A stretch of DNA of 32,000 nucleotides, taken from Acaryochloris marina S15. Lineage in GTDB: Bacteria > Cyanobacteriota > Cyanobacteriia > Thermosynechococcales > Thermosynechococcaceae. The position numbers and the translations under genes were made by a program. Position 1 is the first letter of the stretch; every line of letters begins with the position of its first letter. The stretch covers positions 1-32,000 of the forward strand of contig NZ_CP064924.1 of NCBI RefSeq assembly GCF_018336915.1, read 5' to 3'. The notes beneath the pieces are model-generated. The model was not told the origin of the DNA, did no database searches, and saw only the letters and a list, made by a program, of their open reading frames with translations. This document shows, piece by piece, positions 7,482 through 24,225 of the stretch.

Positions 7482-7502
7482 AAGATCTAAAAACTCTAGA
7501 TC

Positions 7503-7946: not shown

Positions 7947-8115
7947 GTCTTTCCACCTTCAGAAATCATTGTTCGCCAAGTACCCTTATTTCTCAATATA
8001 AACCCCACCCCCATAGAACGCTCCCCGCTGCACCACCTGAAACCCACTAGGTATCCCCACTTACTCCCTTCCCGCTGTAAAATCGAGAAGAAAGTAAATA
8101 GACGCAGTGAACTGA

Positions 8116-10438: not shown

Positions 10439-10447
10439 CCCAATTTA

Positions 10448-10987: not shown

Positions 10988-11211
10988 TCTTATGCCGGGA
11001 AGGGAGTAGATGGCATCTACCCATAAACCAAATGCTTTGCTTGGTTAGCGTCACAGCTCAGAAGCATCCAAACTCTTCAGATCGAACAAAAGACCAGCCC
11101 GACCAGAACCACCAGCGAACACCGGAATCTCCAAAGTCAATCGGGGAAAGAATTCTAGAGACGAGTCTGGGAGAGTCATTTTTTCGTGTAAGTTTTTGTG
11201 TAATACAGATT

Positions 11212-11700: not shown

Positions 11701-11783
11701 GGGAGAGGGACTGGATTTGCGATCTCAATTATGGGGAAACGTCACCGATGTGTCGATTGAGTAGACGAAGGATGAGCGACTAT

Positions 11784-12118
11784 GGAAGCGCAATAGATTA
11801 TATTGAAGTATAATACTACAGAGAGTTTAGAGTTCAAAATACCTTTTGTAACCTAAATGATAGTTAAGAAGGAAGAAAGGCTAATACCAATTACCCAGCA
11901 AAATGACCTATATTGACACTCAAAAGTACTGCAAACTGGTTGCTCTCCAAAATTGAGTAGTTCATTCCTTCAAGCAATTGGTATAAAACAGCGCAACACC
12001 AATATTTTTGAACATCTACAAAATGAACAAATACTCTGTAAGGGTATTCTGCTCTATGTAATTCTAGGTTTATAAATAAACCATACTACCATGCTTCAAC
12101 ATAATCTATTACGCTTCC
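11784..12118. repeat. inverted-repeat-bounded 335-bp AT-rich segment (possible second MITE)
   Basis: GGAAGCGCAATAGATTATATTGAAG (11784-11808) matches the reverse complement of CTTCAACATAATCTATTACGCTTCC (12094-12118) at 23 of 25 positions. No target duplication was seen. Confidence 0.45.
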
Positions 12119-12352
12119 AGTACTTTGACAGGAATTCAGTCAAACAACTTGAGTGAAAACGGATTTTTCAAAATTTAAAGCATCTTATTGAGTTGTATTC
12201 AGGGTCAATTAGTTTCTATAACCTTCGATGTGAATATACTTAAGCCTCTATGATACCAAATTACTAGAGCCGGGAACATATACCGACTTCTGAGGGAATA
12301 CTGAATTTAACATGAAATATACAAATAAAAGCATCCAATAATTCTTAAATAT

Positions 12353-13828
12353 TTGGATCACTGGGAGGATCATTTGAAAAGCAATAGCCAGTCAGATAAC
12401 TTCGTCATGGATGCTGTATTAGGTAGCTTTAATCCTCTTAGGCTACATATGAGGCTCAACAACTTTCCTGAGGACAAAGAGGATCCTTCTACCGTACCAA
12501 TAGAAGCTCAAGCAACTATGGTGCATGAATATGCGCACTATCTCCAAATTTTGTTTACAGGCTTTGGACAGATTTCTTGGGATTTTAATAGACAATTAAC
12601 AGGATTTCTCTTTAATGAATGGAATCAGTTATCAAGATCTCAAGGAGTAAAGAGATATTTGCCCCTTGCATATTTATCAAATATTAGCCTCGATAATTTT
12701 ATGCAAGGCTTATTAGTAAATACAGCATCAAAGGATATGCTAAACCTTGCTCGGGCAAGATTCTATCTTTCTAATCCAGAGATAAAGATTTTTGAATTAG
12801 GCATAACAGATCTCAAAAAAGACTGGTTTGTGAACCCAAGAATAAATCTAAAAAATACTACTCATATTTTACAAACCAAAGATATTACCGAAGGTCAAGC
12901 ATATTTTATAGAGTCTGAATTTCTAGAAGTTATGCACAATATACCAAGAAATATAAGTCTAGATAAATCAGCTATTTCTAAACAATATTGGCTTGCTTAT
13001 GAATGGTTTATTGAAATCTGTGGTGAACAGCGGTATAAAGAATTTCCCATTATATGTGACTTAGCTATGCAAACTAGCTGGGAGCATATAAAACCAAAGT
13101 GTATCGATGAATGGCAGGATTCACATCCAGCATGGCGTTTTATAAAACTAACTCTGGCACTAAGTGAATCTGATGAACTTAAATTAAAGGACGATGAAGA
13201 ATGGCCAAATCATTATTCAAGTTATTCATCCTCCCTACTAAATACTTGTCAATACAAATCTCTTGAAGATATATTTATCGAGCGTCTAACATCTTTTGGA
13301 AGAAGACAAGAGCTATTAGAATTAGAGAAAATTATGCAAAGAGGGATGAGATTTAGAATAGACAATAATATGTATGCAGGAAATCCATTATCAGACTTAT
13401 ATTTATGGCAAAAAATATCAAATTCTTTTCCTATCCCATTTGCCCAGATAAATGGAAAAATGAATAGTTTTGGCCCTCAAAGTACTGAATTGAGCAATGA
13501 GATAGTTATAGAACTACAGTTCCAAGCATTTGCCTATCAAATATTAGGTGAATTCTCCAATGAAGCAAAGCAAGAGAAGTCTGTCGAATGTGCATTTTCT
13601 AAATTCAATATATCTCAAGGCTGCGAGTATCAGAGAAGCCATTCTTGTTCAGGTCGATATCAAGTACATGCTGGTCCTCCCCATGCAGTAGAGGTAGATC
13701 GTAATGGAGACTTTACTGGTTGCTCATTTGAAGCGTTATTTCTCAGTGCAGGTTTTCAAAGCACTGATATAGATGTTGACTTTGAAGCTACTCTGCCCAC
13801 CTTTGAGGAAATCAGGCTGGAGAACTAG
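12353..13828 (+). CDS. orphan 491-aa protein with an N-terminal HExxH motif (putative zinc metallopeptidase-like) and a Cys-rich C-terminus
   Basis: This is a long intact ORF in an AT-rich segment. The motif is ..TMVHEYAHYLQ.. at about aa 56-65. The track start is TTG, and the first in-frame ATG is at 12404. I recognised no family. Confidence 0.65.
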   Translation: MDHWEDHLKSNSQSDNFVMDAVLGSFNPLRLHMRLNNFPEDKEDPSTVPIEAQATMVHEYAHYLQILFTGFGQISWDFNRQLTGFLFNEWNQLSRSQGVKRYLPLAYLSNISLDNFMQGLLVNTASKDMLNLARARFYLSNPEIKIFELGITDLKKDWFVNPRINLKNTTHILQTKDITEGQAYFIESEFLEVMHNIPRNISLDKSAISKQYWLAYEWFIEICGEQRYKEFPIICDLAMQTSWEHIKPKCIDEWQDSHPAWRFIKLTLALSESDELKLKDDEEWPNHYSSYSSSLLNTCQYKSLEDIFIERLTSFGRRQELLELEKIMQRGMRFRIDNNMYAGNPLSDLYLWQKISNSFPIPFAQINGKMNSFGPQSTELSNEIVIELQFQAFAYQILGEFSNEAKQEKSVECAFSKFNISQGCEYQRSHSCSGRYQVHAGPPHAVEVDRNGDFTGCSFEALFLSAGFQSTDIDVDFEATLPTFEEIRLEN

Positions 13829-13829
13829 C

Positions 13830-14255
13830 TCGGGGTATGACAACGATTCCTCGGATAGAGGGCCATAGGGCCGGAATGCATTGACAGTAAATGTCCTGGC
13901 TTGCAGTCCTATCAAATCTTGAATATTGCGAGGATAAAAGAATATAAAAATGAGTTCTGAATCAAGGGAAGATCATCCTTTTTGGTGTTTAAGAAATTTG
14001 GGCCATATCACCCTTAAAGATGCCCTTGTAAAGGTTCAGATACCTGTAATCCCTTTGTAAAGGGCAGTTCAACAATACAATCATGTATTTTGATTGATAG
14101 GGTTGAACATCACCTTGGCTTCCAATTCGGAAATGTTAGAGCAATTCTGACTTCTCTTGATTCAAATAAAAATAATATCGAACTCTACAACCTTTATCTA
14201 GTAAGGGTTCATGTCCCTATGGTCCTCCATTCGAGGAATCGTTGCCATACCCCGA
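13830..14255. repeat. inverted-repeat-bounded 426-bp element (MITE-like) abutting the truncated integrase
   Basis: TCGGGGTATGACAACGATTCCTCGGATAGAGGGCCATAGGG (13830-13870) matches the reverse complement of 14215-14255 (CCCTATGGTCCTCCATTCGAGGAATCGTTGCCATACCCCGA) with 4 mismatches over 41 bp. No clear target duplication was seen. Confidence 0.55.
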
Positions 14256-15415
14256 ATAAGGACTGGCACCAGATTACCATGAACGATCTGAAGCGCTACA
14301 AGACTTATCTGGAGTCGGGTCGGGAGTTGAAGCAGGGTTCAGTGGGGGCTGTCCTGATTGCAATCAAGAGTTTCTTTGCCTGGTTAGTTAAGGCAGGGTA
14401 TATCGAGGATAACCCCAGTGCGGCCATTAGTATTCCCGTGACCCCAGAGACCGAGGGAAAGAACCTGGAACTGTTTCAGGTGGAGGCATTATTTGAAGCG
14501 TTGACAGGACGAACCACTGAGATCCGGGACCGAGCGATTCTCTGTTTGATGATCTATGCCGGGTTAAGGGCCGAGGAAATCTCTCTGTTGAATGCCGGGG
14601 ATTATAACGGGGTGGAGATCACGATTCGGCAGGCCAAGCATGGGTCCGTGGGTAAGGTGCCAGTTGATGATCTAACGGATGAAGCCCTAAGAGCGAATCT
14701 CAGAATTCGGATGGTGGACTGTGAGGGAGGTATGACAGCGGATGATCCGCTGTTCGTCTCTACGAGTCATCGAAATAAGGGTCAGCGGTTGGGGTATGAG
14801 GGTATCTATAAGCTGGTCAAGGCTTTGGCCCAGGACGCAGGCTGGCCTGATATTCATCCTCACAAGGGACGGCATACCTATGCCAGTCAGTTGATTGAGA
14901 ATGGCATGGATGCTTACCTGGCGATGACATTGATGCGGCAGCGATCTGTGAAGGCATTCGAGGTCTATTCCCAGAAGGTCAGGTATCGGACGGCTAAAGG
15001 AGTATTTCTGGAAAACAAAGGGGAGATGGAGCGACAGCCCATGTCGCTGGAGGAGCTTGTGATGGCTAGTGAGGTGCCAGTGGCTGAAGAGGCGATTGAG
15101 CTAGAAGTTGTCACTGAGGGGCCTGCGAACTGGCCCAAGATTACTGCGGTGGATCTGCCCTTGAATGCGGTCCAGGTGAGGCTGACCCTAGAGATGTCAG
15201 GGAGGAAGAAGGGTGTGGTCAGGAAGGCGATCGAGGAGCGGGTGCTGAGTCCGTTTCAGATGGTCAAACCTAAGAAGAGGGGGAATGAGTATGAGCTGAC
15301 GGTTGTGGTTGAAGAAGACGATGCGTTGTCTGCTATCACCGATCAGATGCGCTGGGATATGGAGGTGCTGGGGGAGTTAGATGATTGCGAGGTGAATGTG
15401 AAGTGGTTGGATTGA
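14090..15415 (+). CDS. tyrosine recombinase/integrase, 5'-truncated chimeric copy
   Basis: From 14258 (K57-D58, ..KDWHQITMNDLKRYK) to the 3' end, this ORF is collinear with and very similar to the 21504 integrase. Catalytic motifs are present (AGLRAEEIS, HPHKGRHTYAS, FEVYSQ). The first 56 codons start at TTG and are supplied by the IR-bounded element 13830-14255, so they replace part of the core-binding domain. The copy is likely non-functional. Confidence 0.8.
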   Translation: MIDRVEHHLGFQFGNVRAILTSLDSNKNNIELYNLYLVRVHVPMVLHSRNRCHTPNKDWHQITMNDLKRYKTYLESGRELKQGSVGAVLIAIKSFFAWLVKAGYIEDNPSAAISIPVTPETEGKNLELFQVEALFEALTGRTTEIRDRAILCLMIYAGLRAEEISLLNAGDYNGVEITIRQAKHGSVGKVPVDDLTDEALRANLRIRMVDCEGGMTADDPLFVSTSHRNKGQRLGYEGIYKLVKALAQDAGWPDIHPHKGRHTYASQLIENGMDAYLAMTLMRQRSVKAFEVYSQKVRYRTAKGVFLENKGEMERQPMSLEELVMASEVPVAEEAIELEVVTEGPANWPKITAVDLPLNAVQVRLTLEMSGRKKGVVRKAIEERVLSPFQMVKPKKRGNEYELTVVVEEDDALSAITDQMRWDMEVLGELDDCEVNVKWLD

Positions 15416-15433
15416 ATGTTGTTTCCAAAAAAT

Positions 15434-18400
15434 CTAATCCCACTGCCTTAGTCGTTGTTTTTGAACGTGTTTTTCTGCTGCTTCTATACTTTCGTACCAC
15501 TGTGGATATCGTTTGTGTAAGGCAGCCGCGACCTTGTTGCAGTCCCTGTTGATGTCAACCTTGATGTTCTGGGGAAGGGGCGAGTTGCAAATCAATGGAG
15601 GTTTCTTACCCACTAGTTGAGATTGGGTGAGATTGTTTGTCTTACGGAAGTTTGAATTCAACAGAATGGCGCTGCTGAGGTCGGCGCTGCTGAGATCGGC
15701 GCTGCTGAGATCGGCGCTGCTGAGGTCGGCGCTGCTGAAGTTGGCGCTGCTGAGGTAGGCGCTGAAGAGGTTGGCGCTGCTGAGGTTGGCGCTGCGGAGG
15801 TCGGCGCTGCTGAGGTCGGTTCTGCTGAGGTTGGCGCTGCTGAGGTCGGCGCTGCTGAGGTAGGCGCTGCGGAGATTGGCTCTGCGGAGGTAGGCACTGC
15901 TGAGGTAGGCGCTGCTGAGGTAGGCGCTGCTGAGGTCGGCGCTGCGGAGGTTGGCGCTGCTGAGGTCGGCGCTGCTGAGGTCGGCGTTGCGGAGGTAGGC
16001 GCTGCTGAGGTAGGCGCTGCTGAGGTCGGCGCTGCTGAGGTTGGCGCTGCTGAGGTTGGCGCTGCGGAGGTCGGCGCTGCTGAGGCTGGCGCTGCGGAGG
16101 TTGGCGCTGCTGAGGTCGGTGCTGCGGAGGTTGGCGCTGCTGAGGTCGGCGCTGCGGAGGTTAGCGCTGCTGAGGTCGGCGCTGCGGAGGTTGGCGCTGC
16201 GGAGGTCGGTGCTGCTGAGGTCAGCGTTTTCAAGGGGAGCTTGAAACAGTGGACGACAGTTCCCAAATAGCCGCTCTGCAAGATAAATTGGGACCCATGC
16301 CATCTCTTTTTGTTTTTTACATCCTCCCACTAACGCTTCAACTACCAGTTTCTCTTCATAAGTCCCTTCTATATCTAACCGGGCATAATCTCTTTTAACT
16401 GTAACTTCATGAATATTATGCTCAACAACAACAACTAGTAGAATTAAGGCAAAACCGATCACACCAGCTAAACTTAGCTTCTGACGGTGGAGAACTTTCT
16501 CGTATTGACTCCCTTGAAGTAAAGGCTTGAGATCGTCGGGAATTGCTACTGTCAGCAAATATTCCTTTGCCATAAAATCTAGAAAAATATAGTCACGCAG
16601 AGGCGCTTCATCACGAGTCTGACGAGACAGCAATCGCAGTAGTGGATGGGTTAAGTTGGGCAAGGTTCGCTGATACTGCTGAGCAATTTCTAATTGGAGG
16701 GGTCCAATGCCTCCTCTCACTGCTGTTACCATCAGTTGCTGAAAAGCTTGTCGCACCCCCTTATTTTGATCTGGTGTCAAATTCAAGACTAGATAATGTC
16801 TTAGCCAATCAGGAATATATCCATAGCGAAACCAAGGTAAACGCACAAGCTGAGAGAGGGTAGAACCCGACAATAAAGCCCGTCCCTCGGTATTCTGGAG
16901 CACATTACCTAGGTACACTGTTATCGTCCAATGCAGCTCAGGGAATACAGCGCAAGCGGCAAACCAATACAAACCTGACTCACCCAGATACGTGGAGAGT
17001 TCTGCCAACATCTGTTGCCCTTCCTCCGCTTTTGGCGGATACCGTTCTAACCAGCGTCGGGACCGGATCGCTAGCATCTCAGGAAATGGTGTTGAAGGCG
17101 CTTCAGCTAATCGATAGACGGTAGAACCCTTAAGGAAAATTTGTGGAAATGCTGCGATACCTTGGGGGGTTAGGGGCAGTAAAATAAACTGCTGTACCAA
17201 CTTAAATTCCCATTGACTCCAACTTTCTACAGGGTTGGGGGTTAGAATCACCCGTTGTTTCCAGGCTTGAATTAGCTCAAACCAGGGTTCAGGTTCACCT
17301 GTCTGATGGCTAAAAAGAGTCTCAGCTTCGGCCACAATTACTAACCGATCTTTGCTGTATTGATTGAATATGCCTTGTAAGGACTGGGGATATTGGGTGT
17401 GGCGTTCTGGGTAACAAATCTGAGCATCCCCATCAAAAAAATAGCGTTTAATGTAGACTCCGTTTTTTTGGAGTTGTTGAATGAGTTCTTCCGTTAGCTT
17501 GGCTTGGTGATCTGCATAACTGGCCCGATCGATTAAAAATAAATATTCAGGTATAACTTTTTTGGTGCCATAGATCGGGGTGAACCATCCCCCCTGCTTA
17601 ATAGAAGCTAGAAGTGTTTGCTGTATATCCAGAGTATTGGCAATTTGTTGGGTTCGTCGGCGTAGTTTCTGGGCCGTTTGAAAAATAAGGGTTGATGGAA
17701 ACAATGAACTTTCGATACCCTGCATTGAAATCTTCTGGAGTTCAGGGGATTGGTTGCTTTCTCGACGATTGAGAAACTGACGGGCAATTCGATACCACCA
17801 ATAGCGCCAAATCAATAGAACGGCTGAAACTATCCCTAGGAAGAGAAGCACTCTCATTTGAGACCATTGACTTTCACGCATCGAAGCAGGTGGTTCAGGG
17901 GCTTCTAATGAGAACGGATCTGGTTCGCTAGGGAGTGGGCTAGAGGCTGGAGTAGATGAAGGGCTAGGGGCTGGAGTAGATGAAGGGCTAGGGGCTGGAG
18001 TAGATGAAGGGCTAGGGGCTGGAGTAGATGAAGGGCTAGGAATCAGACCTTTGTGTAGTCGGCTGGGTAAAAATAACACGACCCCAGCAACGATGACCAC
18101 TCCCACTAGACGCCGTATGAGTGTCCTCCCCCCCTTTTGAATACGTGCCAAATCTTCCGCCAAGCCCTCAGCGATCTGCTCTGGGGTTTCAGGAGGGCGA
18201 TAATCCTCTAGCTTGAGCTGCTTCGCCCATTCTTCAAATCGCTCTTGAAAATCAATCTGTTCTGTAGCGGAACTGCAAACGATGGGGCCAATAAATGACT
18301 TTAGCTGCCTTAAATCAGACAGTTCTCCTTGAGCAACCAGATTTAAAAGTAGATCTTGAACGGCAATATATTGCTGAATTCCAATGTTGTAATCCGCATC

Positions 18401-18475
18401 ACGCAGATCATCCAAGAACTGCACCACCAGCTCAGATGCTAGTCTTGCTGGAGTGGTTGATTTTCCTGACTCCAT
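15434..18475 (-). CDS. 1013-aa multi-domain membrane protein: CoxE-like N-terminal region, PS-rich linker, MIDAS-less vWA-like core, about 39 pentapeptide repeats, and a short C-terminal domain
   Basis: The ORF is intact and overlaps the upstream AAA+ gene by 37 nt. There are three hydrophobic helices (LVGVVIVAGVVLFLP; VLLFLGIVSAVLLIW; GVIGFALILLVVVV). The N-terminus (FLDDLRDADYNIGIQQYIAVQDLL..EQIDFQERFEEW) and the core (YLFLIDRASYAD..IKRYFFDGD..RLVIVAEAETLF..KQRVILTPNPVESW) follow the pattern I know from CoxE-type vWA partners of MoxR ATPases. The DxSxS and SDG positions are not conserved. Confidence 0.8.
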   Translation of the reverse strand: MESGKSTTPARLASELVVQFLDDLRDADYNIGIQQYIAVQDLLLNLVAQGELSDLRQLKSFIGPIVCSSATEQIDFQERFEEWAKQLKLEDYRPPETPEQIAEGLAEDLARIQKGGRTLIRRLVGVVIVAGVVLFLPSRLHKGLIPSPSSTPAPSPSSTPAPSPSSTPAPSPSSTPASSPLPSEPDPFSLEAPEPPASMRESQWSQMRVLLFLGIVSAVLLIWRYWWYRIARQFLNRRESNQSPELQKISMQGIESSLFPSTLIFQTAQKLRRRTQQIANTLDIQQTLLASIKQGGWFTPIYGTKKVIPEYLFLIDRASYADHQAKLTEELIQQLQKNGVYIKRYFFDGDAQICYPERHTQYPQSLQGIFNQYSKDRLVIVAEAETLFSHQTGEPEPWFELIQAWKQRVILTPNPVESWSQWEFKLVQQFILLPLTPQGIAAFPQIFLKGSTVYRLAEAPSTPFPEMLAIRSRRWLERYPPKAEEGQQMLAELSTYLGESGLYWFAACAVFPELHWTITVYLGNVLQNTEGRALLSGSTLSQLVRLPWFRYGYIPDWLRHYLVLNLTPDQNKGVRQAFQQLMVTAVRGGIGPLQLEIAQQYQRTLPNLTHPLLRLLSRQTRDEAPLRDYIFLDFMAKEYLLTVAIPDDLKPLLQGSQYEKVLHRQKLSLAGVIGFALILLVVVVEHNIHEVTVKRDYARLDIEGTYEEKLVVEALVGGCKKQKEMAWVPIYLAERLFGNCRPLFQAPLENADLSSTDLRSANLRSADLSSANLRSADLSSANLRSTDLSSANLRSASLSSADLRSANLSSANLSSADLSSAYLSSAYLRNADLSSADLSSANLRSADLSSAYLSSAYLSSAYLRRANLRSAYLSSADLSSANLSRTDLSSADLRSANLSSANLFSAYLSSANFSSADLSSADLSSADLSSADLSSAILLNSNFRKTNNLTQSQLVGKKPPLICNSPLPQNIKVDINRDCNKVAAALHKRYPQWYESIEAAEKHVQKQRLRQWD
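15665..16226 (-). repeat. about 38 tandem 15-nt units encoding A(D/N/Y)L(S/R)S pentapeptides
   Basis: The plus strand reads GCTGCTGAGGTCGGC and its variants. The codons are almost fixed (GCC, CTC, AGC). Variation is essentially limited to (G/A/T)AC and (A/C)GC. Confidence 0.95.
17937..18040 (-). repeat. 4.3 tandem copies of a 24-bp unit encoding (PSPSSTPA)n
   Basis: GGGCTAG(A/G)GGCTGGAGTAGATGAA is repeated head to tail. It lies between the first two hydrophobic helices of the 1013-aa protein. Confidence 0.95.
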
Positions 18476-19449
18476 CGTTCAATGACACCTCTAGCTTTGG
18501 GGATATCTTCAGCCGTTTTAATCAAACTACTCAAAGTCTTCAATACAAGACTTTGGTCTTCTAACGGGTTAGATTTGCCCTCTCCAAACCGCTGCAGTGT
18601 CAAAATCCAGCCCAGTAGTTCAGCCGTTGCAGGCTTTTTACGCAAGCCATTCTCAGGGGCACGTAAGCGATCAAATATATCCAATGCTGTTCTCAAAAAA
18701 GCATTATTGACATCGGTATTCGTTCCTAAATGGCTGGCGATAATATGCGTTAATCGCTCCTTCATGGGGAAGGGCACATTGTAATAAATACAACGCCGTA
18801 GAAAGGCATCTGGCAGGTCTTTTTCAGAGTTGCTAGTGATCACGACCAATGGCTGGAGGGCAGGATCTGCTTCAATCTTGGCATTCTCCAACTCACTGAC
18901 TTTGAAATACAGTTGCTCTAGCTCGTTGAGCAGATCATTGGGGAAGTCCCGTGGGGCTTTGTCTACTTCATCAATCAGTACCACGGAGCGCTGGGGTTGA
19001 AATGATTCAAAATCGGTGGGTAGATATTGTTGAACCTCACCCCACTGTCGAGTACGTAAAATAGCTAAACCCAAAGCTTGATAGGAGATGTAGTTTAAGA
19101 TCGTGCTCGATGTCAAACCGCTCTGAATATCTTGAAACCGCTTAAGAGCGTCGTAGGTATAGAACAGATCACGCGCAGAACTATCGGACTTGGTTTCAAA
19201 TTTGAGCGGAGGTTCAAACCCCAATTCCCAGGCCAAGTTATAGGCGAATTGAGTTTTCCCTGTGCCTGGTTCCCCTGTCAGAAGCAAAGGCTGTCCCAGT
19301 AGTAACGCTACATTACATGCATCTCGTAATCCTTCATCTGCGATATAGCTCTCAGGGTTTAGTAATCGAGATCGTTGAGGGATGGGTAAGCTAGCCGCCA
19401 CCTGCCGATGGTTACCACTGGCATCCCCTCGGTAAAATGGGAGTTCCAT
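18439..19449 (-). CDS. AAA+ ATPase, MoxR/CoxD (AAA_5-like) type, 336 aa
   Basis: Walker A is LLLTGEPGTGKTQ, Walker B is VVLIDEVDKA, sensor-1 is VVITSN, and LPDAFLRRC is present. The start overlaps the upstream stop as TAATG. Confidence 0.88.
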   Translation of the reverse strand: MELPFYRGDASGNHRQVAASLPIPQRSRLLNPESYIADEGLRDACNVALLLGQPLLLTGEPGTGKTQFAYNLAWELGFEPPLKFETKSDSSARDLFYTYDALKRFQDIQSGLTSSTILNYISYQALGLAILRTRQWGEVQQYLPTDFESFQPQRSVVLIDEVDKAPRDFPNDLLNELEQLYFKVSELENAKIEADPALQPLVVITSNSEKDLPDAFLRRCIYYNVPFPMKERLTHIIASHLGTNTDVNNAFLRTALDIFDRLRAPENGLRKKPATAELLGWILTLQRFGEGKSNPLEDQSLVLKTLSSLIKTAEDIPKARGVIERWSQENQPLQQD

Positions 19450-20561
19450 TAAAGTTGCCTCCCACTGATAACCGCTTCTTTTAAAAGCTTCGTTAAATGA
19501 GTTGCGACGTTATCCATCGGCATCGTTTCTTCTTGCTCAAACAACTGACCCACAGCACTCAACAGTTGCTCTAGGACGGCTTCACCCGTGAATTGACTGG
19601 TCTCTGGGCAACGTACCCAGTCCTCGACATGAGTACGATTTACATTATCGAGCTTGGGTAAAACAACCCCAGTCAAGTGATTAAAATCTCTAAATTCTGA
19701 TGCATTGAGATTTTCTAGCTGCTCAATAATCTCATGGTTCATTTTTTGACATCGGCGGCATTTTATAAATCGTCTAAATCGTCTCAACCAGGCAAAAGGG
19801 TTTATCAACCACCTACGTTTCCTCTCTATTCTCGACCGTTTAAGTTGATATTTGACGAAGACACAAACAACTAGCGTTTGATTGACCCCTAATTCTGGCC
19901 ATCGCTGCCAGAATTCTAATATTTTATGTATTAGGTCTGGCCCCAGCCGACGCCAATCGTCCGTCAGCAGATGTAGATGGACGATTACGGGGCCAGGATG
20001 TTTACCAAAGGTTTTGTTGATTTGCTCGACGGGGGCATAACTATTATTTTCAACAGTATCTGCTAAGTTTTTTGATAATCTAGCTGATAGCCTGTCCAAA
20101 TTCTTTAGACTAGCAGGCCATTGCAGATGATGTTCCTTAATCGCTGTTTGCTTGAGGTCAATGTTTAAGAGGCGAGGTAAGGAAACCTTGCGCAAGCGCT
20201 CCAGAAACTTATCATGACTCTGCAACTCATCCCCGTGTATCAGGCAAATTAATGGCTGTCGTTTTGATCGTGATTGCCATTTCTGAATCGCTAGACTCAG
20301 CGTATACTCCTGATCCGTTCGGTCAGGCAAATAGGGCAAGAGTGAAGGAATGACTGGCTTCGCACTCAAACCTTTTTGATCTAGGGCTATCCCGTTACTA
20401 TCAACAAAATATACGTTGCTCCCGGATATATTATTCGCATTCCCCCCAGACATCTGCCCAAAAGTCTGCCCCTGATTGTTGCCTATGTCTTGTTGAGCTT
20501 GATTTGTCGGCTTTGAGCTTTGCTCTGGAGAACTCTCTGGCGATGGATGCATTGAGGGCAA
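19449..20561 (-). CDS. 370-aa protein: N-terminal Q/N/G-rich motif plus an NTPase-like core with no Walker A
   Basis: The ORF is intact, with a TTG start in the track and an ATG at 20552. It contains ..QQDIGNNQGQTFGQMSGGNANNISGSNVY.., then LPYLPDRTDQEYTL..RQPLICLIHGDELQSHDKFLERL. No GxxxxGK[ST] motif occurs anywhere in the protein. Confidence 0.75.
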   Translation of the reverse strand: MPSMHPSPESSPEQSSKPTNQAQQDIGNNQGQTFGQMSGGNANNISGSNVYFVDSNGIALDQKGLSAKPVIPSLLPYLPDRTDQEYTLSLAIQKWQSRSKRQPLICLIHGDELQSHDKFLERLRKVSLPRLLNIDLKQTAIKEHHLQWPASLKNLDRLSARLSKNLADTVENNSYAPVEQINKTFGKHPGPVIVHLHLLTDDWRRLGPDLIHKILEFWQRWPELGVNQTLVVCVFVKYQLKRSRIERKRRWLINPFAWLRRFRRFIKCRRCQKMNHEIIEQLENLNASEFRDFNHLTGVVLPKLDNVNRTHVEDWVRCPETSQFTGEAVLEQLLSAVGQLFEQEETMPMDNVATHLTKLLKEAVISGRQL

Positions 20562-20588
20562 ATCACACTAAAGGAGTAAATTTTAGAC

Positions 20589-21077
20589 CTATAGATTTAT
20601 ATCACCTTGAACAGAGTCAATTACGCCGATATTTTTAACGTTTCCTCCTGACATCTGACCAATCACGACCCCCTGGTTCTCATCAATATTTTGCTGAGCA
20701 ACATTCTGGTTAGCTGAGGGCTGAATATCCGCAAAGATTTCTGCAATAGCAGCTTCTAATTGTGAATCATTTGCCAAAATCGTTGCTAATTCCTCTTGCA
20801 AGGCTTCCTTCCAAGCAGCACTTTCAGGAGTTGTCGCCAGCTTCTCAGCAGCGATCTGCGCTGCAGCTTCAGATTCTACCTTTGGGTGTAACTTACCCCA
20901 AATAGCCTTTGCTCTTTCCCAAGTATCTTCTCCTAACTTTTTAGCAGCTCCATCTAATGCTGGGGCACCAACTTTTTTCAGCAGGAAAGGCAAACAGGGA
21001 GCTAAAAATGATGTCAGAGCGATGATATCCATAAGAGATAAAAGCTGAGCAACAATCCGAAACATCACCTTTATCAC
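20589..21077 (-). CDS. small (148-162 aa) alpha-helical protein with a hydrophobic N-terminus and a C-terminal Q/N/G-rich motif
   Basis: The ORF is intact. The track start is GTG at 21077, and a more plausible ATG at 21032 gives MDIIALTSFLAPCLPFLLKKVGAPALDGAAKKLGEDTWERAKAIW... The C-terminus is ..QQNIDENQGVVIGQMSGGNVKNIGVIDSVQGDINL. Confidence 0.75.
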   Translation of the reverse strand: MIKVMFRIVAQLLSLMDIIALTSFLAPCLPFLLKKVGAPALDGAAKKLGEDTWERAKAIWGKLHPKVESEAAAQIAAEKLATTPESAAWKEALQEELATILANDSQLEAAIAEIFADIQPSANQNVAQQNIDENQGVVIGQMSGGNVKNIGVIDSVQGDINL

Positions 21078-21503: not shown

Positions 21504-22916
21504 ATGTCGCGTTTCTCTCAAACTTCCGACATCCCAACCGTCCGTCTGATTGAGTTCGGCACAGAAAAACCAGAGGAGAGCAAACCTGCATCTGAAACGC
21601 CCTTGCCTAAGCCAGCGGTAGTGAATCTGCGTCAAGTCAGAATCGAACAGTTCCTCACCCTGAAGAACCTGGCGGCCAACACCCGACGCAACTATGAACG
21701 TCATCTACGACAGTTCAGTTTATGGGTGAACAAGGACTGGCATCAGATTACCATGAACGATCTGAAACGCTACAAGACTTATCTAGAGTCAGGTCGGCAG
21801 TTAAAGCAGGGGTCGGTCGGGGCGATATTGACGGCTCTTAAAAGCTTCTTTTCCTGGCTGAAGAAGGCTGGGTACATTGAGGAGAATCCAGGGACGGCGA
21901 TCAGTATTCCGGTAACTCCAGAGACGGAGGGGAAGAATCTAGAGCTGTTCCAGGTGGAGGCACTGTTTGAGGCACTGGAGAAGCGGAAGACAAAGAGACG
22001 TGATCGGGCGATCCTGTGTTTGATGGTGTTTGCCGGGATGCGGGCTGAGGAAATCTCTCATCTCAATGCCGGGGATTATAACGGGGTGGAAATCACTATC
22101 CGTCAGGCCAAGCATGGATCCGTGGGTCGGGTACCTGTGGATGAGCAAACCGATGCAGCACTGCGGGCTAATCTTCGGGTTCGGATGGTGGATGGTGAGG
22201 GAGGGATGACAGCAGATGATCCGATGTTTGTCTCTACGAGTCATCGAAATAAGGGTCAACGGTTGGGGTATGAGGGTATCTATAAGATGGTCAAAGCCTT
22301 GGCCCAAGATGCAGGCTGGCCTGATATTCATCCCCATAAAGGACGACATACCTATGCCAGTCAGTTGATTGAGAATGGCATGGATGCGTACCTGGCGATG
22401 ACGTTGATGCGGCAGCGATCTGTGAAAGCATTTGAGGTCTATTCCCAGAAGGTCCGGTATCGGACGGCTAAGGGAGTCTTTCTGGAAAGCAAAGGGGAAG
22501 TGGAACGACAGCCAATGCCGCTGGAGGATCTGGTGGCATTTAGCGAGGTGCCAGTGGCAGAAGAGGCGATTGAGCTAAAAGTTGTCACTGAGGAGCCTGC
22601 GAACTGGCCCAAGATTACTGCGGTGGATCTGCCCTTGAATGCGGTCCAGGTGGGGCTGACGGTTGAGGTTTCAGGGAAGAAGAAGGGTGTGGTCAGGAAG
22701 GAGATCGAAGAGCGGGTTTTGAGTCCGTTTCAGATGGTCAAACCTAAGAAGAGGGGGAATGAGTATGAGCTGACGGTTGTGGTTGAGGAAGACGATGCGT
22801 TGTCTGCTATCACCGATCAGATGCGCTGGGATATGGAGCTACTGGCTGAGCTGGATGATTGCGAGGTGAAAGTGGTGTGGGTTGGGGATGGTTTGACCCG
22901 AAAGTGTTTGATATAG
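21504..22916 (+). CDS. tyrosine recombinase/integrase (470 aa), full-length copy with a long C-terminal extension
   Basis: It has an ATG start and an N-terminal SAM-like core-binding region (IEQFLTLKNLAANTRRNYERHLRQF). Catalytic motifs are AGMRAEEIS, KHGSVGRVPV, HPHKGRHTYAS and FEVYSQ. About 155 aa follow the catalytic Tyr codon at 22440. Confidence 0.88.
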   Translation: MSRFSQTSDIPTVRLIEFGTEKPEESKPASETPLPKPAVVNLRQVRIEQFLTLKNLAANTRRNYERHLRQFSLWVNKDWHQITMNDLKRYKTYLESGRQLKQGSVGAILTALKSFFSWLKKAGYIEENPGTAISIPVTPETEGKNLELFQVEALFEALEKRKTKRRDRAILCLMVFAGMRAEEISHLNAGDYNGVEITIRQAKHGSVGRVPVDEQTDAALRANLRVRMVDGEGGMTADDPMFVSTSHRNKGQRLGYEGIYKMVKALAQDAGWPDIHPHKGRHTYASQLIENGMDAYLAMTLMRQRSVKAFEVYSQKVRYRTAKGVFLESKGEVERQPMPLEDLVAFSEVPVAEEAIELKVVTEEPANWPKITAVDLPLNAVQVGLTVEVSGKKKGVVRKEIEERVLSPFQMVKPKKRGNEYELTVVVEEDDALSAITDQMRWDMELLAELDDCEVKVVWVGDGLTRKCLI

Positions 22917-23079: not shown

Positions 23080-24225
23080 TTGAAGGAGACCGCTTTGAAA
23101 AAACAACGCCACTGTGATCCAAAAGTTGAGCAACTTCTTGATGAACTGATGCAGGACTACAGCAGTCCTGAGCAGATATTGGGGGAGGAGGGATTAATCA
23201 AGCAATTATCAAAACGCCTGATTGAGAAAGCCTTACAAGCAGAACTGAGCCATCATCTGCAAAGCACACCCACAGGAGAGTCTCCATCGCCTTCAAAATC
23301 GGGCAATAGTCGTAATGGGTATTCCGCTAAAACGATCAATACCGAACAAGGGGCTTTCGACCTTCAGATCCCTCGAGATCGCCTCAGCGAGTTTGAGCCG
23401 ATTATTGTGCCTAAAGGCCAGCGTCGATTGGCCGGTCTTGATGAGAAGATTTTGGCACTGTATGCACGAGGGAGCAGTACCCGAGATATTCAAGGCCAGC
23501 TGGAAGAGTTGTATGGAATTGAGCTATCCCCAACCCTGATTTCTCAAGTCACCGATGCGATTATGGAAGAAGTCCGTCAGTGGCAAACTCGCCCCGTGGA
23601 TGCGCTGTATCCCATCCTGTTTTTGGATGCATTGTACGTCAAAATCCGCCAAGAAGGACGGGTTAAAAGTCGGGCAGTGTATGTGGTATTAGGGATTAAC
23701 CTCGATGGCCACAAAGAAGTCTTAGGCTTATGGATCGGACCTCAAGAACGGGAGGGGGCTAAATTCTGGCTCAAGGTCTTGACGGATCTCAAAAATCGGG
23801 GGCTACAAGATGTTTTTATCGCTTGTGTAGACGGATTAACAGGTTTTCCAGAAGCCATTGAAACCCTCTATCCCCAGACTCATGTGCAACTCTGTATCGT
23901 CCACTTGATCCGCAATTCTCTCAAATATGTCAGTTGGAAACACCGCAAGGAAGTTGCAGCTGATCTCAAGCCGATTTATCAAGCGGCAACGGTCTGTGAG
24001 GCGGAAGATGCTCTGACTCACTTTGCCGATAAGTATGATCAGGTTTATCCCACCATCAGTCAAATTTGGCTGCGCCATTGGGAAAGGGTGATTCCTTTGT
24101 TTGATTATCCGCCTGACATTCGCAAGGCCATTTACACCACCAATGCCATTGAATCAGTCAATCGTAGTCTCAGAAAGGTTTTGAAAACTAAAGGAGCATT
24201 CCCAGATGAAACCCTGATTGCCTGA
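23080..24225 (+). pseudogene. IS256-family (Mutator-type) transposase, 3'-truncated
   Basis: Typical IS256 sequence is present (..GNSRNGYSAKT..FEPIIVPKGQRR..ILFLDALYVKIR..FIACVDGLTGFPEAI..LCIVHLIRNSL..IYTTNAIESVNRSLRKV). It ends at ..GAFPDETLIA with a stop supplied by the end of the neighbouring IS. The usual C-terminal tail of about 40 aa is absent downstream. Confidence 0.85.

What the first reader, a model, noticed from the sequence alone, without database searches (positions are those of the whole stretch)
15434..21077. Four-gene, translationally coupled cassette that couples a MoxR/CoxE-like pair to a motif-sharing protein pair: candidate undescribed signalling or conflict system
Four intact minus-strand genes sit with minimal spacing. 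There is a gap of about 27-36 nt, then a TAATG overlap, then a 37-nt overlap.

- **Gene 1:** a 148-162 aa helical protein with a hydrophobic N-terminus and a Q/N/G-rich tail.
- **Gene 2:** a 370-aa protein that starts with the same motif and has an NTPase-like core without any Walker A.
- **Gene 3:** a MoxR/CoxD-type AAA+ ATPase with intact Walker A and B.
- **Gene 4:** a 1013-aa three-helix membrane protein with a CoxE-like N-terminus, a vWA-like core lacking the MIDAS residues, and a pentapeptide-repeat array of about 195 aa.

MoxR-vWA pairs are established chaperone or switch modules. They also recur in the NTP-dependent conflict systems of multicellular bacteria. I do not recognise this combination (effector-like helical protein, Walker-less STAND-like adaptor, MoxR, membrane pentapeptide protein) as a described system.

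The cassette is the only long run of intact non-IS genes in a heavily decayed region, and it is bracketed by recombinase genes. That is the context expected for mobile defence cargo.
Basis: partly seen in the sequence, partly recalled or inferred. Interest (0 to 1): 0.9.

Follow-up and report, generated by a model that had tools for sequence, protein, structure and literature searches.

The report
Cell-death cassette with shared amyloid-like motif
This four-gene cyanobacterial operon belongs to an already predicted "iSTAND–MoxR–vWA" immune-type system, but its signalling protein and a small membrane-attacking protein share a short prion-like motif, which suggests that the suicide signal passes between them by amyloid templating.

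Summary
Four intact, tightly packed minus-strand genes lie at 15434-21077, and the order is conserved in at least 13 cyanobacterial loci.

The claim that the combination is undescribed is not correct for three of the genes. Gene 2 is a Pfam iSTAND protein (E 2.5e-22). Together with the AAA+ ATPase and the membrane vWA-like protein it forms the "iSTAND ternary system" predicted by Kaur et al. 2020. That system has never been tested experimentally.

The new part is gene 1 and the shared motif:
- Gene 1 is 147 aa, starting at ATG 21032. It has the architecture of a Bell-type cell-death effector: a hydrophobic N-terminal helix with Asp at position 2, a helical bundle, and a disordered tail rich in Q, N, G, V and I.
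- Its tail motif recurs at the iSTAND N-terminus (z = 12.6) and co-evolves with it (p ≈ 5e-5).
- In seven other loci the same effector pairs with an active nSTAND1 NLR-like protein carrying the same motif.
- The motif is absent from the published BASS1-10 list.
- No paper in the held library links amyloid signalling to iSTAND or MoxR.

Gene 4 is a chimera. Its extracytoplasmic pentapeptide module and the adjoining recombinase came from an nSTAND1 NLR-type locus, which argues that this module is the sensor.

Verdict: a new variant of a known kind. Fibril formation and toxicity are untested.

The parts
20589..21032 (-). g1: 147-aa Bell-type effector candidate (true start ATG 21032; stop codon 20589-20591)
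   Evidence: More than 20 homologues are 147-150 aa and share the same N-terminus. AF2 gives a helical bundle for residues 1-101 with pLDDT about 80. A profile search finds 1364 relatives, mostly 130-160 aa.
20730..21032 (-). g1 helical domain (aa 1-101), including the hydrophobic N-terminal helix MDIIALTSFLAPCLPFLL with Asp at position 2
   Evidence: AF2 secondary structure. Kyte-Doolittle mean of 2.08 over residues 3-17. F9, L10, P12, L14, P15 and F16 are invariant.
20592..20723 (-). g1 C-terminal motif (aa 104-147; core NQGVVIGQMSGGNVKNIG), rich in Q, N, G, V and I
   Evidence: Predicted disordered, pLDDT below 50. It aligns with the g2 N-terminus at z = 12.6. Composition is Q 15.5, N 11.1, G 18.1, I 11.9, V 9.5, P 0.1 and L 2.1 %.
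19449..20552 (-). g2: iSTAND protein (367 aa from ATG 20552)
   Evidence: Pfam iSTAND PF19995, E 2.5e-22. Orthologue alignment A3.
20403..20522 (-). g2 N-terminal copy of the motif (aa 11-50; NQAQQDIGNNQGQTFGQMSGGNANNISGSNVYFV)
   Evidence: hhalign places it on the N-terminal motif of the nSTAND1 partner proteins (probability 96%, E 4e-9).
19854..20336 (-). g2 iSTAND domain. The degenerate P-loop site IHGDELQSH lies at 20214-20237.
   Evidence: Pfam match to residues 76-236. The Walker A gap is visible in the hhalign alignment. HGDE.Q is invariant.
18439..19449 (-). g3: AAA+ ATPase of the MoxR/midasin (AAA_5) group. Walker A lies at 19252-19275 and Walker B at 18961-18984.
   Evidence: Pfam AAA and AAA_5. 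The best solved relative by profile search is midasin AAA, E 1.6e-6. 78% mean column identity among 10 orthologues.
15434..18475 (-). g4: 1013-aa three-TM protein made of a 4-helix N-domain, a vWA-like domain, a helical linker, TM3 and a pentapeptide module
18209..18436 (-). g4 N-terminal 4-helix domain (aa 14-89), of the CoxE type according to Kaur et al.
   Evidence: AF2 helices 14-26, 33-49, 56-66 and 70-89, pLDDT about 70.
17126..17563 (-). g4 alpha/beta (vWA-like) domain (aa 305-450) with a degenerate MIDAS (LIDRASYADHQ)
   Evidence: AF2 pLDDT 80-86. VWA_CoxE is hit weakly by 5 of 10 orthologous segments (best E 0.0025). NorD VWA and integrin I-domains appear among non-significant Foldseek hits.
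16424..16477 (-). g4 TM3 (aa 667-684). The chimera junction lies within it, at about 16428-16452.
   Evidence: Kyte-Doolittle maximum 2.65. Homology to the Acaryochloris IP29b orthologue ends at 16452. Collinear homology to plasmid pMB04 ends at 16428.
15437..16423 (-). g4 C-terminal sensor module (aa 685-1013): a Cys-containing juxtamembrane segment, pentapeptide repeats (15626-16243) and a C-terminal cap
   Evidence: 50% identical (E 1e-83) to the C-terminus of the pMB04 caspase-nSTAND1-pentapeptide protein. Pfam Pentapeptide. TRF finds 37 copies of a 15-nt unit.
14090..15415 (+). Left tyrosine recombinase gene. It is 5'-truncated (homology starts at 14254) and was co-acquired with the sensor module.
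   Evidence: Pfam Phage_integrase. Alignment with the right copy. Window 14254-16428 is collinear with pMB04.
21504..22916 (+). Right, full-length tyrosine recombinase gene. It is context, not part of the system.
   Evidence: Pfam. 94% identical to the pMB04 copy. The same family sits next to ParA/ParB on Acaryochloris plasmids.

Best explanation
The cassette is an iSTAND-MoxR-vWA ternary conflict system of Acaryochloris. Its output arm is a Bell-type membrane-targeting effector (g1), coupled to the system through a short amyloid-signalling-type motif.

**Proposed sequence of events.**
1. (Inferred) The membrane protein g4 has its 4-helix and vWA-like domains in the cytoplasm. After TM3, its variable module (pentapeptide repeats here) faces the extracytoplasmic side and acts as the sensor.
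2. (Inferred, from known MoxR-vWA pairs such as NorQ/NorD and CoxD/CoxE) The vWA-like domain recruits the active AAA+ ATPase g3. g3 supplies the ATP-dependent switch that g2 has lost with its Walker A.
3. (Inferred) MoxR action lets the iSTAND scaffold oligomerise. This brings its N-terminal motifs together so that they fold into a cross-beta nucleus.
4. (Inferred, by analogy with HET-S/NWD2 and Bab/Agp) This nucleus templates the homologous C-terminal motif of g1. The hydrophobic N-terminal helix of g1 is released, the membrane is damaged, and the infected or stressed cell dies.

**Shown here.**
- Domain identities and conserved four-gene synteny.
- Motif sharing and concerted evolution of the two motif copies.
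- Loss of the P-loop in g2.
- Use of the same effector and motif by active nSTAND1 NLR-like proteins.
- Exchange of the C-terminal module between a vWA component and an NLR-like protein.

**Not shown.** Fibril formation, toxicity, the triggering signal, and anti-phage activity.
For: **The core is an iSTAND ternary system.**
- g2 matches Pfam iSTAND at E 2.5e-22.
- The order g1, iSTAND, AAA+, large vWA-like protein is conserved in L001, L003-L006, L008-L013 and L015.
- It matches the description in PMC7159879, section 20.

**The motif is shared and co-evolves.**
- The g1 tail and the g2 head align at z = 12.6.
- Cognate pairs score 77.1 against 63.1 for non-cognate pairs (permutation p about 5e-5), and this also holds within the iSTAND group alone.
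- Substitutions are mirrored within a locus, for example GNMSGG in both proteins of L001 and GQMYGG in both proteins of L008.

**The motif looks like a BASS.**
- It is about 30-40 aa, enriched in Q, N, G, V and I, and depleted in P, L and K. This is the composition reported for BASS motifs.
- It is predicted to be disordered in the monomer.

**g1 has Bell-type architecture.**
- It is 147 aa, with a hydrophobic N-terminal helix, Asp at position 2, and a helical bundle. These are the features listed for Bell domains.
- Its profile retrieves 1364 relatives.
- Some relatives carry BASS6-type tails that are mirrored on the next gene's N-terminus.
- One relative sits next to an NB-ARC-TPR gene.
- Others are N-terminal fusions to NACHT or NB-ARC proteins.

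**NLR-like proteins use the same effector and motif.**
- In seven loci the g1 homologue is followed by a single protein with motif, nSTAND1, a TM helix and pentapeptide repeats.
- hhalign aligns the iSTAND and nSTAND1 N-termini at 96% probability, with the Walker A deleted in iSTAND.

**The g4 C-terminal module is a sensor.**
- It varies among orthologues: WD40, FGE-sulfatase, CHASE2, periplasmic-binding-protein type, TonB.
- It differs even in the closest relative, which is 74% identical in the N-terminal part but carries WD40 repeats.
- In the window it was swapped in from a caspase-nSTAND1-pentapeptide NLR-type gene, with the junction inside TM3.

**Precedent.** Bab/Agp is a Bell-type effector paired with a non-NLR partner through BASS11, and it has been shown experimentally to act as an abortive-infection defence.
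Against: - No experiment or structure shows that this motif forms amyloid.
- The string 'GQM' does not occur in the BASS1-10 pair table of Dyrka et al., so the motif belongs to no validated family.
- Foldseek and PDB sequence searches found no significant relative of g1.
- No Pfam model covers the family. HeLo matched 1 of 87 members at E 0.0094, and HetE-N matched one close homologue at E 0.012. Homology to Bell/HeLo therefore rests on architecture and on relatives.
- The vWA assignment of g4 is weak (VWA_CoxE E 0.0025 at best; Foldseek not significant), and the MIDAS is absent.
- g3 does not hit the canonical MoxR model.
- Kaur et al. assign the roles the other way round, with iSTAND as the invader sensor and the vWA C-terminus in the 'effector position'.
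- No iSTAND or VMAP ternary system has been validated against phage in the held literature, and PADLOC has no model for any of the four proteins beyond generic ATPase hits.
- The extracytoplasmic location of the pentapeptide module is inferred only from hydropathy, charge bias and conserved cysteines.
Confidence: 0.55

Rival explanations
1. The components are the same, but the shared motif is an ordinary homotypic adaptor, that is, an unrecognised beta-type 'EAD' in the sense of Kaur et al. It tethers g1 stoichiometrically to iSTAND, with no amyloid or prion-like templating. g1 would then be released or activated by a conformational change or by proteolysis.
For: - The EAD principle already predicts one adaptor copy on iSTAND, a second copy on an adjacent effector gene, and closer similarity between adjacent copies.
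- Three known EADs have mixed alpha/beta character.
- No amyloid evidence was obtained here.
Against: - The g2 N-terminus hits no Pfam EAD model.
- The motif is only about 30-40 aa and is predicted disordered.
- Its composition and its placement (effector C-terminus, NTPase N-terminus, collinear tight gene pair) are those of BASS motifs.
- The effector has a Bell-type architecture, and relatives carry BASS6-type motifs.
Confidence: 0.25
2. The role assignment of Kaur et al. is correct. iSTAND is the cytoplasmic invader (nucleic-acid) sensor, MoxR-vWA sets the threshold, and the C-terminal pentapeptide module of g4 is an effector or scaffold. g1 is an additional effector recruited through the adaptor.
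For: - This is the published interpretation.
- Pentapeptide repeat proteins can mimic DNA and inhibit DNA-binding enzymes.
Against: - The C-terminal modules of orthologues are typical ligand-binding or extracytoplasmic sensor domains (CHASE2, periplasmic-binding type, WD40, FGS, TonB-C), and each follows a TM helix.
- The window's module is shared with the C-terminal, receptor-position end of an nSTAND1 NLR-like protein whose effector is an N-terminal caspase.
- Dore et al. reached the same sensor reading for VMAP systems.
- The iSTAND core is highly conserved, not variable (56% mean column identity).
Confidence: 0.12
3. The cassette is a housekeeping MoxR/CoxE-type chaperone operon that matures or inserts a cofactor into a membrane or metallo-enzyme. 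The small protein would be a substrate or an assembly factor.
For: - MoxR-vWA pairs such as CoxD/CoxE and NorQ/NorD are maturation chaperones (title and abstract of PMC9976466).
- There is a weak VWA_CoxE signal.
Against: - No cox, nor or cbb target genes lie nearby in any locus.
- The MIDAS motif is lost.
- An iSTAND protein is present.
- The C-terminal modules are hypervariable.
- The effector and motif are shared with NLR-like proteins.
Confidence: 0.03
4. The window copy is a non-functional relic. The g4 chimera arose by illegitimate recombination in an IS-rich plasmid region and no longer signals.
For: - The junction lies inside TM3, next to a truncated recombinase.
- The surroundings are full of transposases.
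- Some relatives are visibly decayed: L015 has a truncated iSTAND and L013 has an insertion.
Against: - All four ORFs are intact and in frame, and they keep every family-invariant residue.
- The fusion preserves a TM helix and a complete sensor module.
- Module exchange at this position is the rule among orthologues.
Confidence: 0.08

Closest known systems
iSTAND ternary system (vWA-MoxR subsystem 2; Kaur, Burroughs, Iyer & Aravind 2020, eLife, PMC7159879)
   Same: - An inactive STAND third component, a MoxR-type AAA+ and a vWA protein with a CoxE-like 4-helix N-domain.
- TM segments and a variable C-terminal module.
- An N-terminal adaptor on iSTAND that is repeated on a neighbouring effector gene.
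- Cyanobacterial distribution and tight operon structure.
   Different: - The adaptor is not one of the described globular EADs or Death-like domains. It is a short, disordered motif rich in Q, N and G.
- The recruited effector is not an enzyme (trypsin, caspase, TIR) but a small helical, Bell-type membrane-targeting protein.
- The evidence here favours the vWA C-terminus as the sensor rather than the effector.
Bell-domain / BASS / NLR amyloid-signalling gene pairs (Dyrka et al. 2020, bioRxiv 10.1101/2020.01.06.895854)
   Same: - A helical effector of about 120-150 aa with a hydrophobic N-terminal helix and an acidic residue at position 2 or 3.
- A C-terminal motif repeated at the N-terminus of the adjacent, collinear NTPase gene.
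- The motif's composition, and occurrence in cyanobacteria.
   Different: - The partner is a catalytically dead STAND that depends on a separate MoxR ATPase and a membrane vWA sensor, not an NB-ARC or NACHT NLR.
- The motif is not in the BASS1-10 table.
- Relatives pair with nSTAND1, a clade that was not screened in that study.
Bab/Agp (BASS11) abortive-infection system of E. coli ECOR25 (Ibarlosa et al. 2024, bioRxiv 10.1101/2024.11.07.622273)
   Same: - A small Bell-related effector with a C-terminal amyloid motif.
- It is activated by a non-NLR partner that carries the motif at its N-terminus.
- The two genes are adjacent.
   Different: [quoted passage not shown]
- It has experimental proof: fibrils, defence against phage T5, and relocalisation of Bab to the cell periphery.
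- Nothing has been tested here, and the upstream module consists of three proteins.
HET-S / NWD2 of Podospora anserina
   Same: The logic is the same. Oligomerisation of a receptor NTPase nucleates an N-terminal amyloid motif. That motif templates the C-terminal motif of a pore-forming effector encoded next door.
   Different: - It is fungal, with a HeLo domain, the HRAM motif and an active NACHT.
- No sequence similarity was detected.
Housekeeping MoxR-vWA chaperone pairs (CoxD/CoxE, NorQ/NorD, CbbQ/CbbO, RavA/ViaA)
   Same: - An AAA+ paired with a vWA adaptor, encoded by overlapping genes.
- A CoxE-like N-domain, and NorD VWA among the Foldseek hits.
   Different: - There is no client enzyme genes nearby and no MIDAS.
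- The cassette has an extra iSTAND protein and an extra effector.
- The vWA protein is membrane-anchored and carries an exchangeable sensor.

Membership tests
iSTAND ternary system (Kaur et al. 2020) | The third component carries the inactive STAND (iSTAND) domain | tested here: met
   Pfam PF19995 at E 2.5e-22 and 80.4 bits, against a cut-off of 24. Orthologues are also annotated iSTAND.
iSTAND ternary system (Kaur et al. 2020) | The NTP-binding motifs of the STAND module are lost | tested here: met
   hhalign against active nSTAND1 relatives shows GPSGSGKS replaced by a gap and DELQSH. HGDE.Q is invariant in 10 orthologues.
iSTAND ternary system (Kaur et al. 2020) | An adjacent MoxR-clade AAA+ ATPase with intact motifs | tested here: inconclusive
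   - Walker A and B are intact.
- All 10 orthologues hit AAA_5 (best E 1.5e-10).
- The best solved relative is midasin.
- bpMoxR matches only at E 0.0039, and no canonical MoxR model is hit.
- The protein is an AAA+ of the right supergroup, but its clade assignment rests on the literature.
iSTAND ternary system (Kaur et al. 2020) | A vWA component with a CoxE-type 4-helix N-terminal domain | tested here: inconclusive
   - AF2 gives four N-terminal helices and an alpha/beta domain with pLDDT above 80.
- VWA_CoxE is the only Pfam family hit by several orthologues, 5 of 10, but weakly (best E 0.0025).
- Foldseek is not significant, although NorD VWA ranks 8th and 10th.
iSTAND ternary system (Kaur et al. 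2020) | A highly variable C-terminal module on the vWA component | tested here: met
   Orthologues carry pentapeptide, WD40, FGE-sulfatase, CHASE2, periplasmic-binding-type, TonB or unknown modules.
iSTAND ternary system (Kaur et al. 2020) | The N-terminal adaptor of iSTAND is duplicated on an adjacent effector gene (the EAD principle) | tested here: met
   The motif is shared at z = 12.6 and cognate pairs are the most similar. However, the adaptor matches no Pfam EAD model.
Bell / BASS amyloid-signalling pair (Dyrka et al. 2020) | A small helical effector of about 120-150 aa with a hydrophobic N-terminal helix and an acidic residue at position 2 or 3 | tested here: met
   g1 is 147 aa and starts MDIIALTSFLAPCLPFLL. 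AF2 gives a helical bundle for residues 1-101.
Bell / BASS amyloid-signalling pair (Dyrka et al. 2020) | Sequence homology of the globular domain to Bell domains | tested here: inconclusive
   - No Bell model or reference sequence was available.
- The g1 profile retrieves proteins with BASS6-type tails paired to NTPase N-termini, a neighbour of an NB-ARC-TPR gene, and N-terminal fusions to NACHT or NB-ARC proteins.
- No accession from Dyrka's Table S2 was recovered.
- Pfam HeLo and HetE-N hits are marginal.
Bell / BASS amyloid-signalling pair (Dyrka et al. 2020) | A C-terminal motif of about 25 aa repeated at the N-terminus of the adjacent, collinear gene product | tested here: met
   The gap between the two genes is 27-36 nt.
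Bell / BASS amyloid-signalling pair (Dyrka et al. 2020) | The partner is an NB-ARC or NACHT NLR with TPR or WD repeats | tested here: not met
   In the window the partner is iSTAND. In seven related loci the partner is nSTAND1 + TM + pentapeptide. That is NLR-like, but NACHT is hit only weakly.
Bell / BASS amyloid-signalling pair (Dyrka et al. 2020) | The motif belongs to one of the BASS1-10 families (or BASS11) | tested here: not met
   The strings GQM, IGQM, GQVIG, NEGQ and QQTV are absent from the 346-pair Table S2. The nearest entry in style is an unassigned Calothrix pair.
Bell / BASS amyloid-signalling pair (Dyrka et al. 2020) | The motif forms amyloid fibrils, behaves as a prion, and the NLR-side copy converts the effector-side copy | not testable with these tools
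   Only composition and predicted disorder are available.
Housekeeping CoxD/CoxE-type maturation operon | Linkage to client enzyme genes and an intact MIDAS in the vWA domain | tested here: not met
   No such neighbours occur in any locus. DxSxS is replaced by DRASY.
Pentapeptide repeat protein family | Tandem A(D/N)LXX repeats | tested here: met
   Pfam PF00805 at E 2.3e-42. At DNA level there are 37 copies of a 15-nt unit.

The most novel reading that the evidence does not exclude
An AAA+-gated amyloid switch. A catalytically dead STAND scaffold carries a prion-like N-terminal motif. Nucleation of that motif is licensed by a MoxR ATPase and by a transmembrane vWA protein with an exchangeable extracytoplasmic sensor. 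The nucleus then templates a Bell-type pore-former.

This would be the first amyloid-signalling pathway in which receptor, NTPase and nucleator are three separate proteins. It would also be the first mechanistic output assigned to any MoxR-vWA ternary conflict system.

The motif would define a new, cyanobacteria-wide BASS family used interchangeably by iSTAND systems and by nSTAND1 NLR-like proteins.
Probability: 0.4. Interest if true: 0.75.

Novelty: new variant of a known kind. Interest (0 to 1): 0.55.

Why it matters
MoxR-vWA ternary systems are among the most widespread predicted immune or apoptosis-like systems of multicellular bacteria. None of them has a demonstrated output or mechanism.

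Amyloid signalling from NLRs to pore-forming effectors is established in fungi and in one E. coli system. How far it extends in bacteria is still open.

This cassette links the two fields, and the link gives concrete, cheap experiments:
- two peptides to test for fibrils and cross-seeding;
- one 147-aa protein to test for toxicity;
- one ATPase to mutate.

The natural swap of the g4 C-terminal module with that of an NLR-like protein bears on a published disagreement. The question is whether the variable vWA C-terminus is the effector (Kaur et al.) or the sensor (Dore et al.). The swap favours the sensor.

If MoxR gates amyloid nucleation, that would parallel the control of prions by AAA+ chaperones in eukaryotes.

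Tried and rejected
**Searches that gave nothing useful.**
- Foldseek of the g1 model against the PDB found no hit better than E 1.6.
- PDB sequence and profile searches with A1 and with the 87-member family alignment A8 found nothing significant.
- Pfam on 87 family members showed that no family covers them.
- PADLOC had no model for g1, g2 or g4. NCBIfam gave only sub-threshold hits.

**Attempts to tie g1 to Bell proteins by accession.**
- BAB74123 and BAY68044 are not in Dyrka's Table S2.
- The last large protein search, with the BASS6-type relative P0148, returned mostly unnamed metagenomic proteins. I then used gene neighbourhoods instead.

**Literature supplement.** The held supplement of Kaur 2020 contains only the species list, not gene neighbourhoods. 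I therefore could not check whether these exact loci were in their iSTAND set, or how they labelled the small gene.

**Confirming the vWA fold of g4.**
- Foldseek of the 700-residue g4 model was dominated by generic Rossmann and flavodoxin folds.
- A PDB profile search of the domain found nothing.

**Ideas considered and dropped.**
- I considered that the tyrosine recombinase is a dedicated 'sensor-cassette' shuffling enzyme. Other copies sit beside ParA/ParB or unrelated genes on Acaryochloris plasmids, so it looks like an ordinary plasmid recombinase that was co-transferred.
- I considered that the C-terminal cap similarity (LP.NIK..INRDC) to the nSTAND1 partners proves specific homology. 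On its own it is weak, because pentapeptide proteins share such caps. The pMB04 comparison is the solid evidence.
- The promoter and terminator scan was uninformative.

Full report
**1.

The ORF list shows four minus-strand genes: 20589-21077, 19449-20561, 18439-19449 and 15434-18475.
- a 27-36 nt gap between g1 and g2;
- a one-base TAATG overlap at 19449;
- a 37-nt overlap at 18439-18475.

Two start codons need correcting. More than twenty homologues of gene 1 are 147-150 aa and begin MD(I/V)xxLT.FLAPCLPFLL, so g1 starts at ATG 21032. Orthologues of gene 2 begin at the position of ATG 20552.

The window comes from Acaryochloris. The closest relative of the cassette is in an Acaryochloris sp. 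IP29b MAG (92% protein identity for g1). The flanking recombinase matches only Acaryochloris plasmids.

**2. Three of the four genes form a system that has already been described.**

Gene 2 matches Pfam iSTAND (PF19995, E 2.5e-22). Kaur et al. 2020 (PMC7159879, section 20) define 'iSTAND ternary systems' by these features:
- a MoxR AAA+ ATPase;
- a vWA protein with a CoxE-type four-helix N-terminal domain;
- frequent TM segments;
- a highly variable C-terminal module, with FGS the most common, but also superstructure-forming repeats;
- an inactive STAND protein whose N-terminus carries an adaptor or signalling domain that recurs on an adjacent effector gene;
- concentration in cyanobacteria.

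I tested each feature:
- **P-loop loss.** This is directly visible. In a profile-profile alignment with active relatives, IYGPSGSGKSS corresponds to IHG-----DELQSHD (96% probability, E 4e-9). HGDE.Q is invariant in ten orthologues.
- **Gene 3.** It has an intact Walker A (GEPGTGKT) and Walker B (VVLIDEVD). All ten orthologues hit AAA_5, and the nearest solved relative is midasin. No canonical MoxR model is hit, so I accept 'MoxR' on the literature's authority only.
- **Gene 4.** AlphaFold gives a four-helix N-domain, two TM helices flanking a Pro/Ser-rich loop, and a confident alpha/beta domain (residues 305-450, pLDDT above 80). A helical region and a third TM helix follow.
- **The vWA assignment.** It is only weakly supported. 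VWA_CoxE is the one Pfam family hit by several orthologous segments (5 of 10, best E 0.0025). NorD-VWA and integrin I-domains appear among non-significant Foldseek hits. The MIDAS DxSxS is replaced by an invariant LIDRASYxDHQ.

**3. Synteny.**

The order g1, iSTAND, AAA+, large protein recurs in L001, L003-L006, L008-L013 and L015. The same overlapping junctions occur there.

The genomic context in other species is mostly housekeeping: pst, tex, hisG, purA. Only in Rubidibacter is the context island-like, with HamA and toxin-antitoxin-like genes. 'Defence-island cargo' therefore describes this window, not the family.

**4. Gene 1 and the motif are the interesting part.**

The last ~44 residues of g1 (QPSANQNVAQQNIDENQGVVIGQMSGGNVKNI...) align with residues 11-42 of g2 (QSSKPTNQAQQDIGNNQGQTFGQMSGGNANNI). 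The score is 89, against 26 +/- 5 for shuffled sequence (z = 12.6). The motif occurs nowhere else in the window.

Across 16 non-redundant loci, cognate pairs are more alike than non-cognate pairs (77.1 vs 63.1; permutation p about 5e-5). This also holds within the iSTAND group alone. Substitutions are mirrored within a locus, for example GNMSGG in both proteins of L001 and GQMYGG in both proteins of L008.

Two paralogous motifs that diverged independently would not show this pattern. It indicates concerted evolution, as expected for surfaces that must match each other.

The motif is enriched in Q, N, G, V and I and almost free of P and L. It is predicted to be disordered in the monomer. These are the properties reported for bacterial amyloid signalling sequences.

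**5. Gene 1 looks like a Bell-type effector.**

Dyrka et al. describe Bell domains as follows:
- proteins of about 120-140 aa;
- a hydrophobic N-terminal helix with an acidic residue at position 2 or 3;
- a five-helix bundle;
- a C-terminal motif mirrored on the neighbouring NLR;
- occasionally, the domain is fused to the N-terminus of an NLR.

g1 fits each architectural point.

A profile of the g1 family against 1.84 billion representatives found 1364 relatives (532 at E <= 1e-10). Most are 130-160 aa, share the MDxxxLxxFLAPxLPxLLK head, and have many different short tails rich in Q, N, G and V. Among them:
- P0197 ends in SGERSVAVGGSVEGSTIVTGD, and the next gene product starts with SGARSVSVGGDVRSSIIVTGD. 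This is the BASS6 pattern of Dyrka's Table S2.
- P0077 (Nostoc PCC 7120, BAB74123.1) lies next to an NB-ARC-TPR gene.
- P0074, P0168 and P0178 carry the domain fused to NACHT or NB-ARC NTPases.

Direct proof of homology is missing. No Pfam model covers the family. There is no PDB relative by sequence or by fold. No Table S2 accession was recovered. I therefore treat Bell membership as probable, not demonstrated.

**6. NLR-like proteins use the same effector and motif.**

In seven loci (L014, L016, L018, L019, L021-L023) the g1 homologue is followed by a single protein of 650-790 aa. That protein has the motif at its N-terminus, an active nSTAND1 NTPase (Pfam E about 1e-100), a TM helix and C-terminal pentapeptide repeats.

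This is the classical effector/NLR amyloid-signalling arrangement, apart from the NTPase clade. The iSTAND version reads as that arrangement split into three proteins: nucleator scaffold (g2), ATPase (g3) and membrane sensor (g4).

The motif is not in the published BASS1-10 pair list. The strings GQM, GQVIG and NEGQ are absent. That screen considered only NB-ARC and NACHT partners. No paper in the held library connects amyloid signalling or Bell domains with iSTAND, MoxR or vWA.

**7. Gene 4 is a chimera, and this identifies the sensor.**

Homology between the window and the Acaryochloris IP29b cassette runs from 21118 to 16452 (82.6% identity). It stops inside the TM3 codons. Beyond that point the IP29b protein has WD40 repeats.

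From 16428 down to 14254 the window is instead collinear with plasmid pMB04 of Acaryochloris 'Moss Beach'. There, the same tyrosine recombinase lies tail-to-tail with a caspase-nSTAND1-TM-pentapeptide gene. The two C-terminal modules are 50% identical (E 1e-83). The left recombinase copy in the window is truncated exactly where this collinearity begins.

So a fragment carrying a truncated recombinase and an NLR receptor module replaced the 3' end of g4.

Other orthologues carry CHASE2, FGE-sulfatase, periplasmic-binding-type, TonB or TAT-signal-preceded modules after the same TM helix. Hydropathy, charge bias and conserved cysteine pairs place this module outside the cytoplasm. This topology is an inference.

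The evidence supports the view of Dore et al. (PMC10907252) that the variable vWA C-terminus is the sensor. It argues against the 'effector position' reading of Kaur et al.

**8. Mechanism proposed.**

1. An extracytoplasmic signal is detected by the g4 C-terminal module.
2. The g4 vWA-like domain engages the MoxR ATPase.
3. ATP-driven remodelling lets iSTAND oligomerise.
4. The clustered N-terminal motifs fold into a cross-beta nucleus.
5. The nucleus templates the g1 tail.
6. The hydrophobic N-terminal helix of g1 is exposed and damages the membrane, and the cell dies.

Every step after the domain assignments is inferred, by analogy with NorQ/NorD-type pairs, HET-S/NWD2 and Bab/Agp.

I give this mechanism about 0.55. 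Membership of the iSTAND ternary class I put at about 0.9.

The main rival (0.25) keeps the architecture but treats the motif as a non-amyloid adaptor, in line with the EAD principle. The housekeeping CoxD/CoxE reading is essentially excluded.

**9. Novelty and limits.**

The cassette is a new variant of a known, purely predicted kind. It is an iSTAND ternary system whose adaptor is a BASS-like motif of an unlisted family, and whose recruited effector is Bell-like.

No ternary system of this class has been validated experimentally in the held literature. PADLOC does not model it.

The value of the finding is that it makes the output of these systems directly testable. It also supplies natural-experiment evidence on which component is the sensor.

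Noticed in passing
window 15668-16226: The pentapeptide region of g4 is 37 tandem copies of a 15-nt unit (87% matches). It is so regular that all frames stay open on both strands, which produces spurious ORFs at 15658-16281 (-) and 16041-16244 (+). This suggests recent expansion and possible length variation by slippage.
   Followed up: partly
window 17937-18040: A 24-nt unit repeated 4.3 times (98% matches) encodes the SPSSTPAP linker between TM1 and TM2 of g4. This is a second potentially length-variable tract.
   Followed up: no
window 14254-15410 and 21728-22885: Two direct copies of a tyrosine recombinase gene (85.9% identical over 1159 nt) bracket the cassette, and the left copy is 5'-truncated. 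Recombination between them could delete or circularise the 6.3-kb cassette. The same recombinase family sits next to ParA/ParB on Acaryochloris plasmids pMB03 and pREC3, so the window is probably plasmid-borne.
   Followed up: partly
L028 (pMB04, NZ_CP071721.1) 7487-13278: The donor-type locus encodes an all-in-one caspase-nSTAND1-TM-pentapeptide protein. Next to it are a Trypco1 protein and two hypothetical proteins, with NB-ARC and TIR genes nearby. Acaryochloris plasmids appear densely loaded with NLR-type conflict genes.
   Followed up: partly
window 11109-11312: A 204-nt stretch is 76% identical to the region just upstream of the pMB04 recombinase. It may be a third remnant of the same element.
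   Followed up: no
window 7503-7946 (-): A stand-alone 147-aa pentapeptide-repeat gene whose DNA resembles the pentapeptide region of the pMB04 NLR-like gene. It could act as a reservoir for repeat exchange.
   Followed up: no
window 12001-14000; ORF 12353-13828 (+): A low-GC stretch (33-37%, against about 46% elsewhere) contains a 491-aa ORF with no Pfam match.
   Followed up: no
window 6225-7028, 8699-10303, 23080-25492, 27477-28718, 29957-30496: The surrounding genes are IS1-like, Mutator-family and two DDE_Tnp_1 transposases, a DUF6399 protein and a staphylococcal-nuclease homologue. DUF6399 also occurs near the recombinase on pMB01.
   Followed up: partly
L013 8594-9490; L015 8951-9604; L017 4854-5318: Variants of the cassette exist. 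L013 has a gene inserted between g1 and iSTAND, L015 has a truncated iSTAND, and L017 has an orphan g1 homologue with no partner nearby.
   Followed up: partly
P0074 (953 aa): An all-in-one relative carries a Bell-like domain, then a motif (IQIVQNVTGNRNHVIGQVAGGKVI), then a NACHT-type NTPase and TPR repeats. The amyloid-type motif is retained as an internal linker, which is unexpected if it is needed only for signalling between separate proteins.
   Followed up: no
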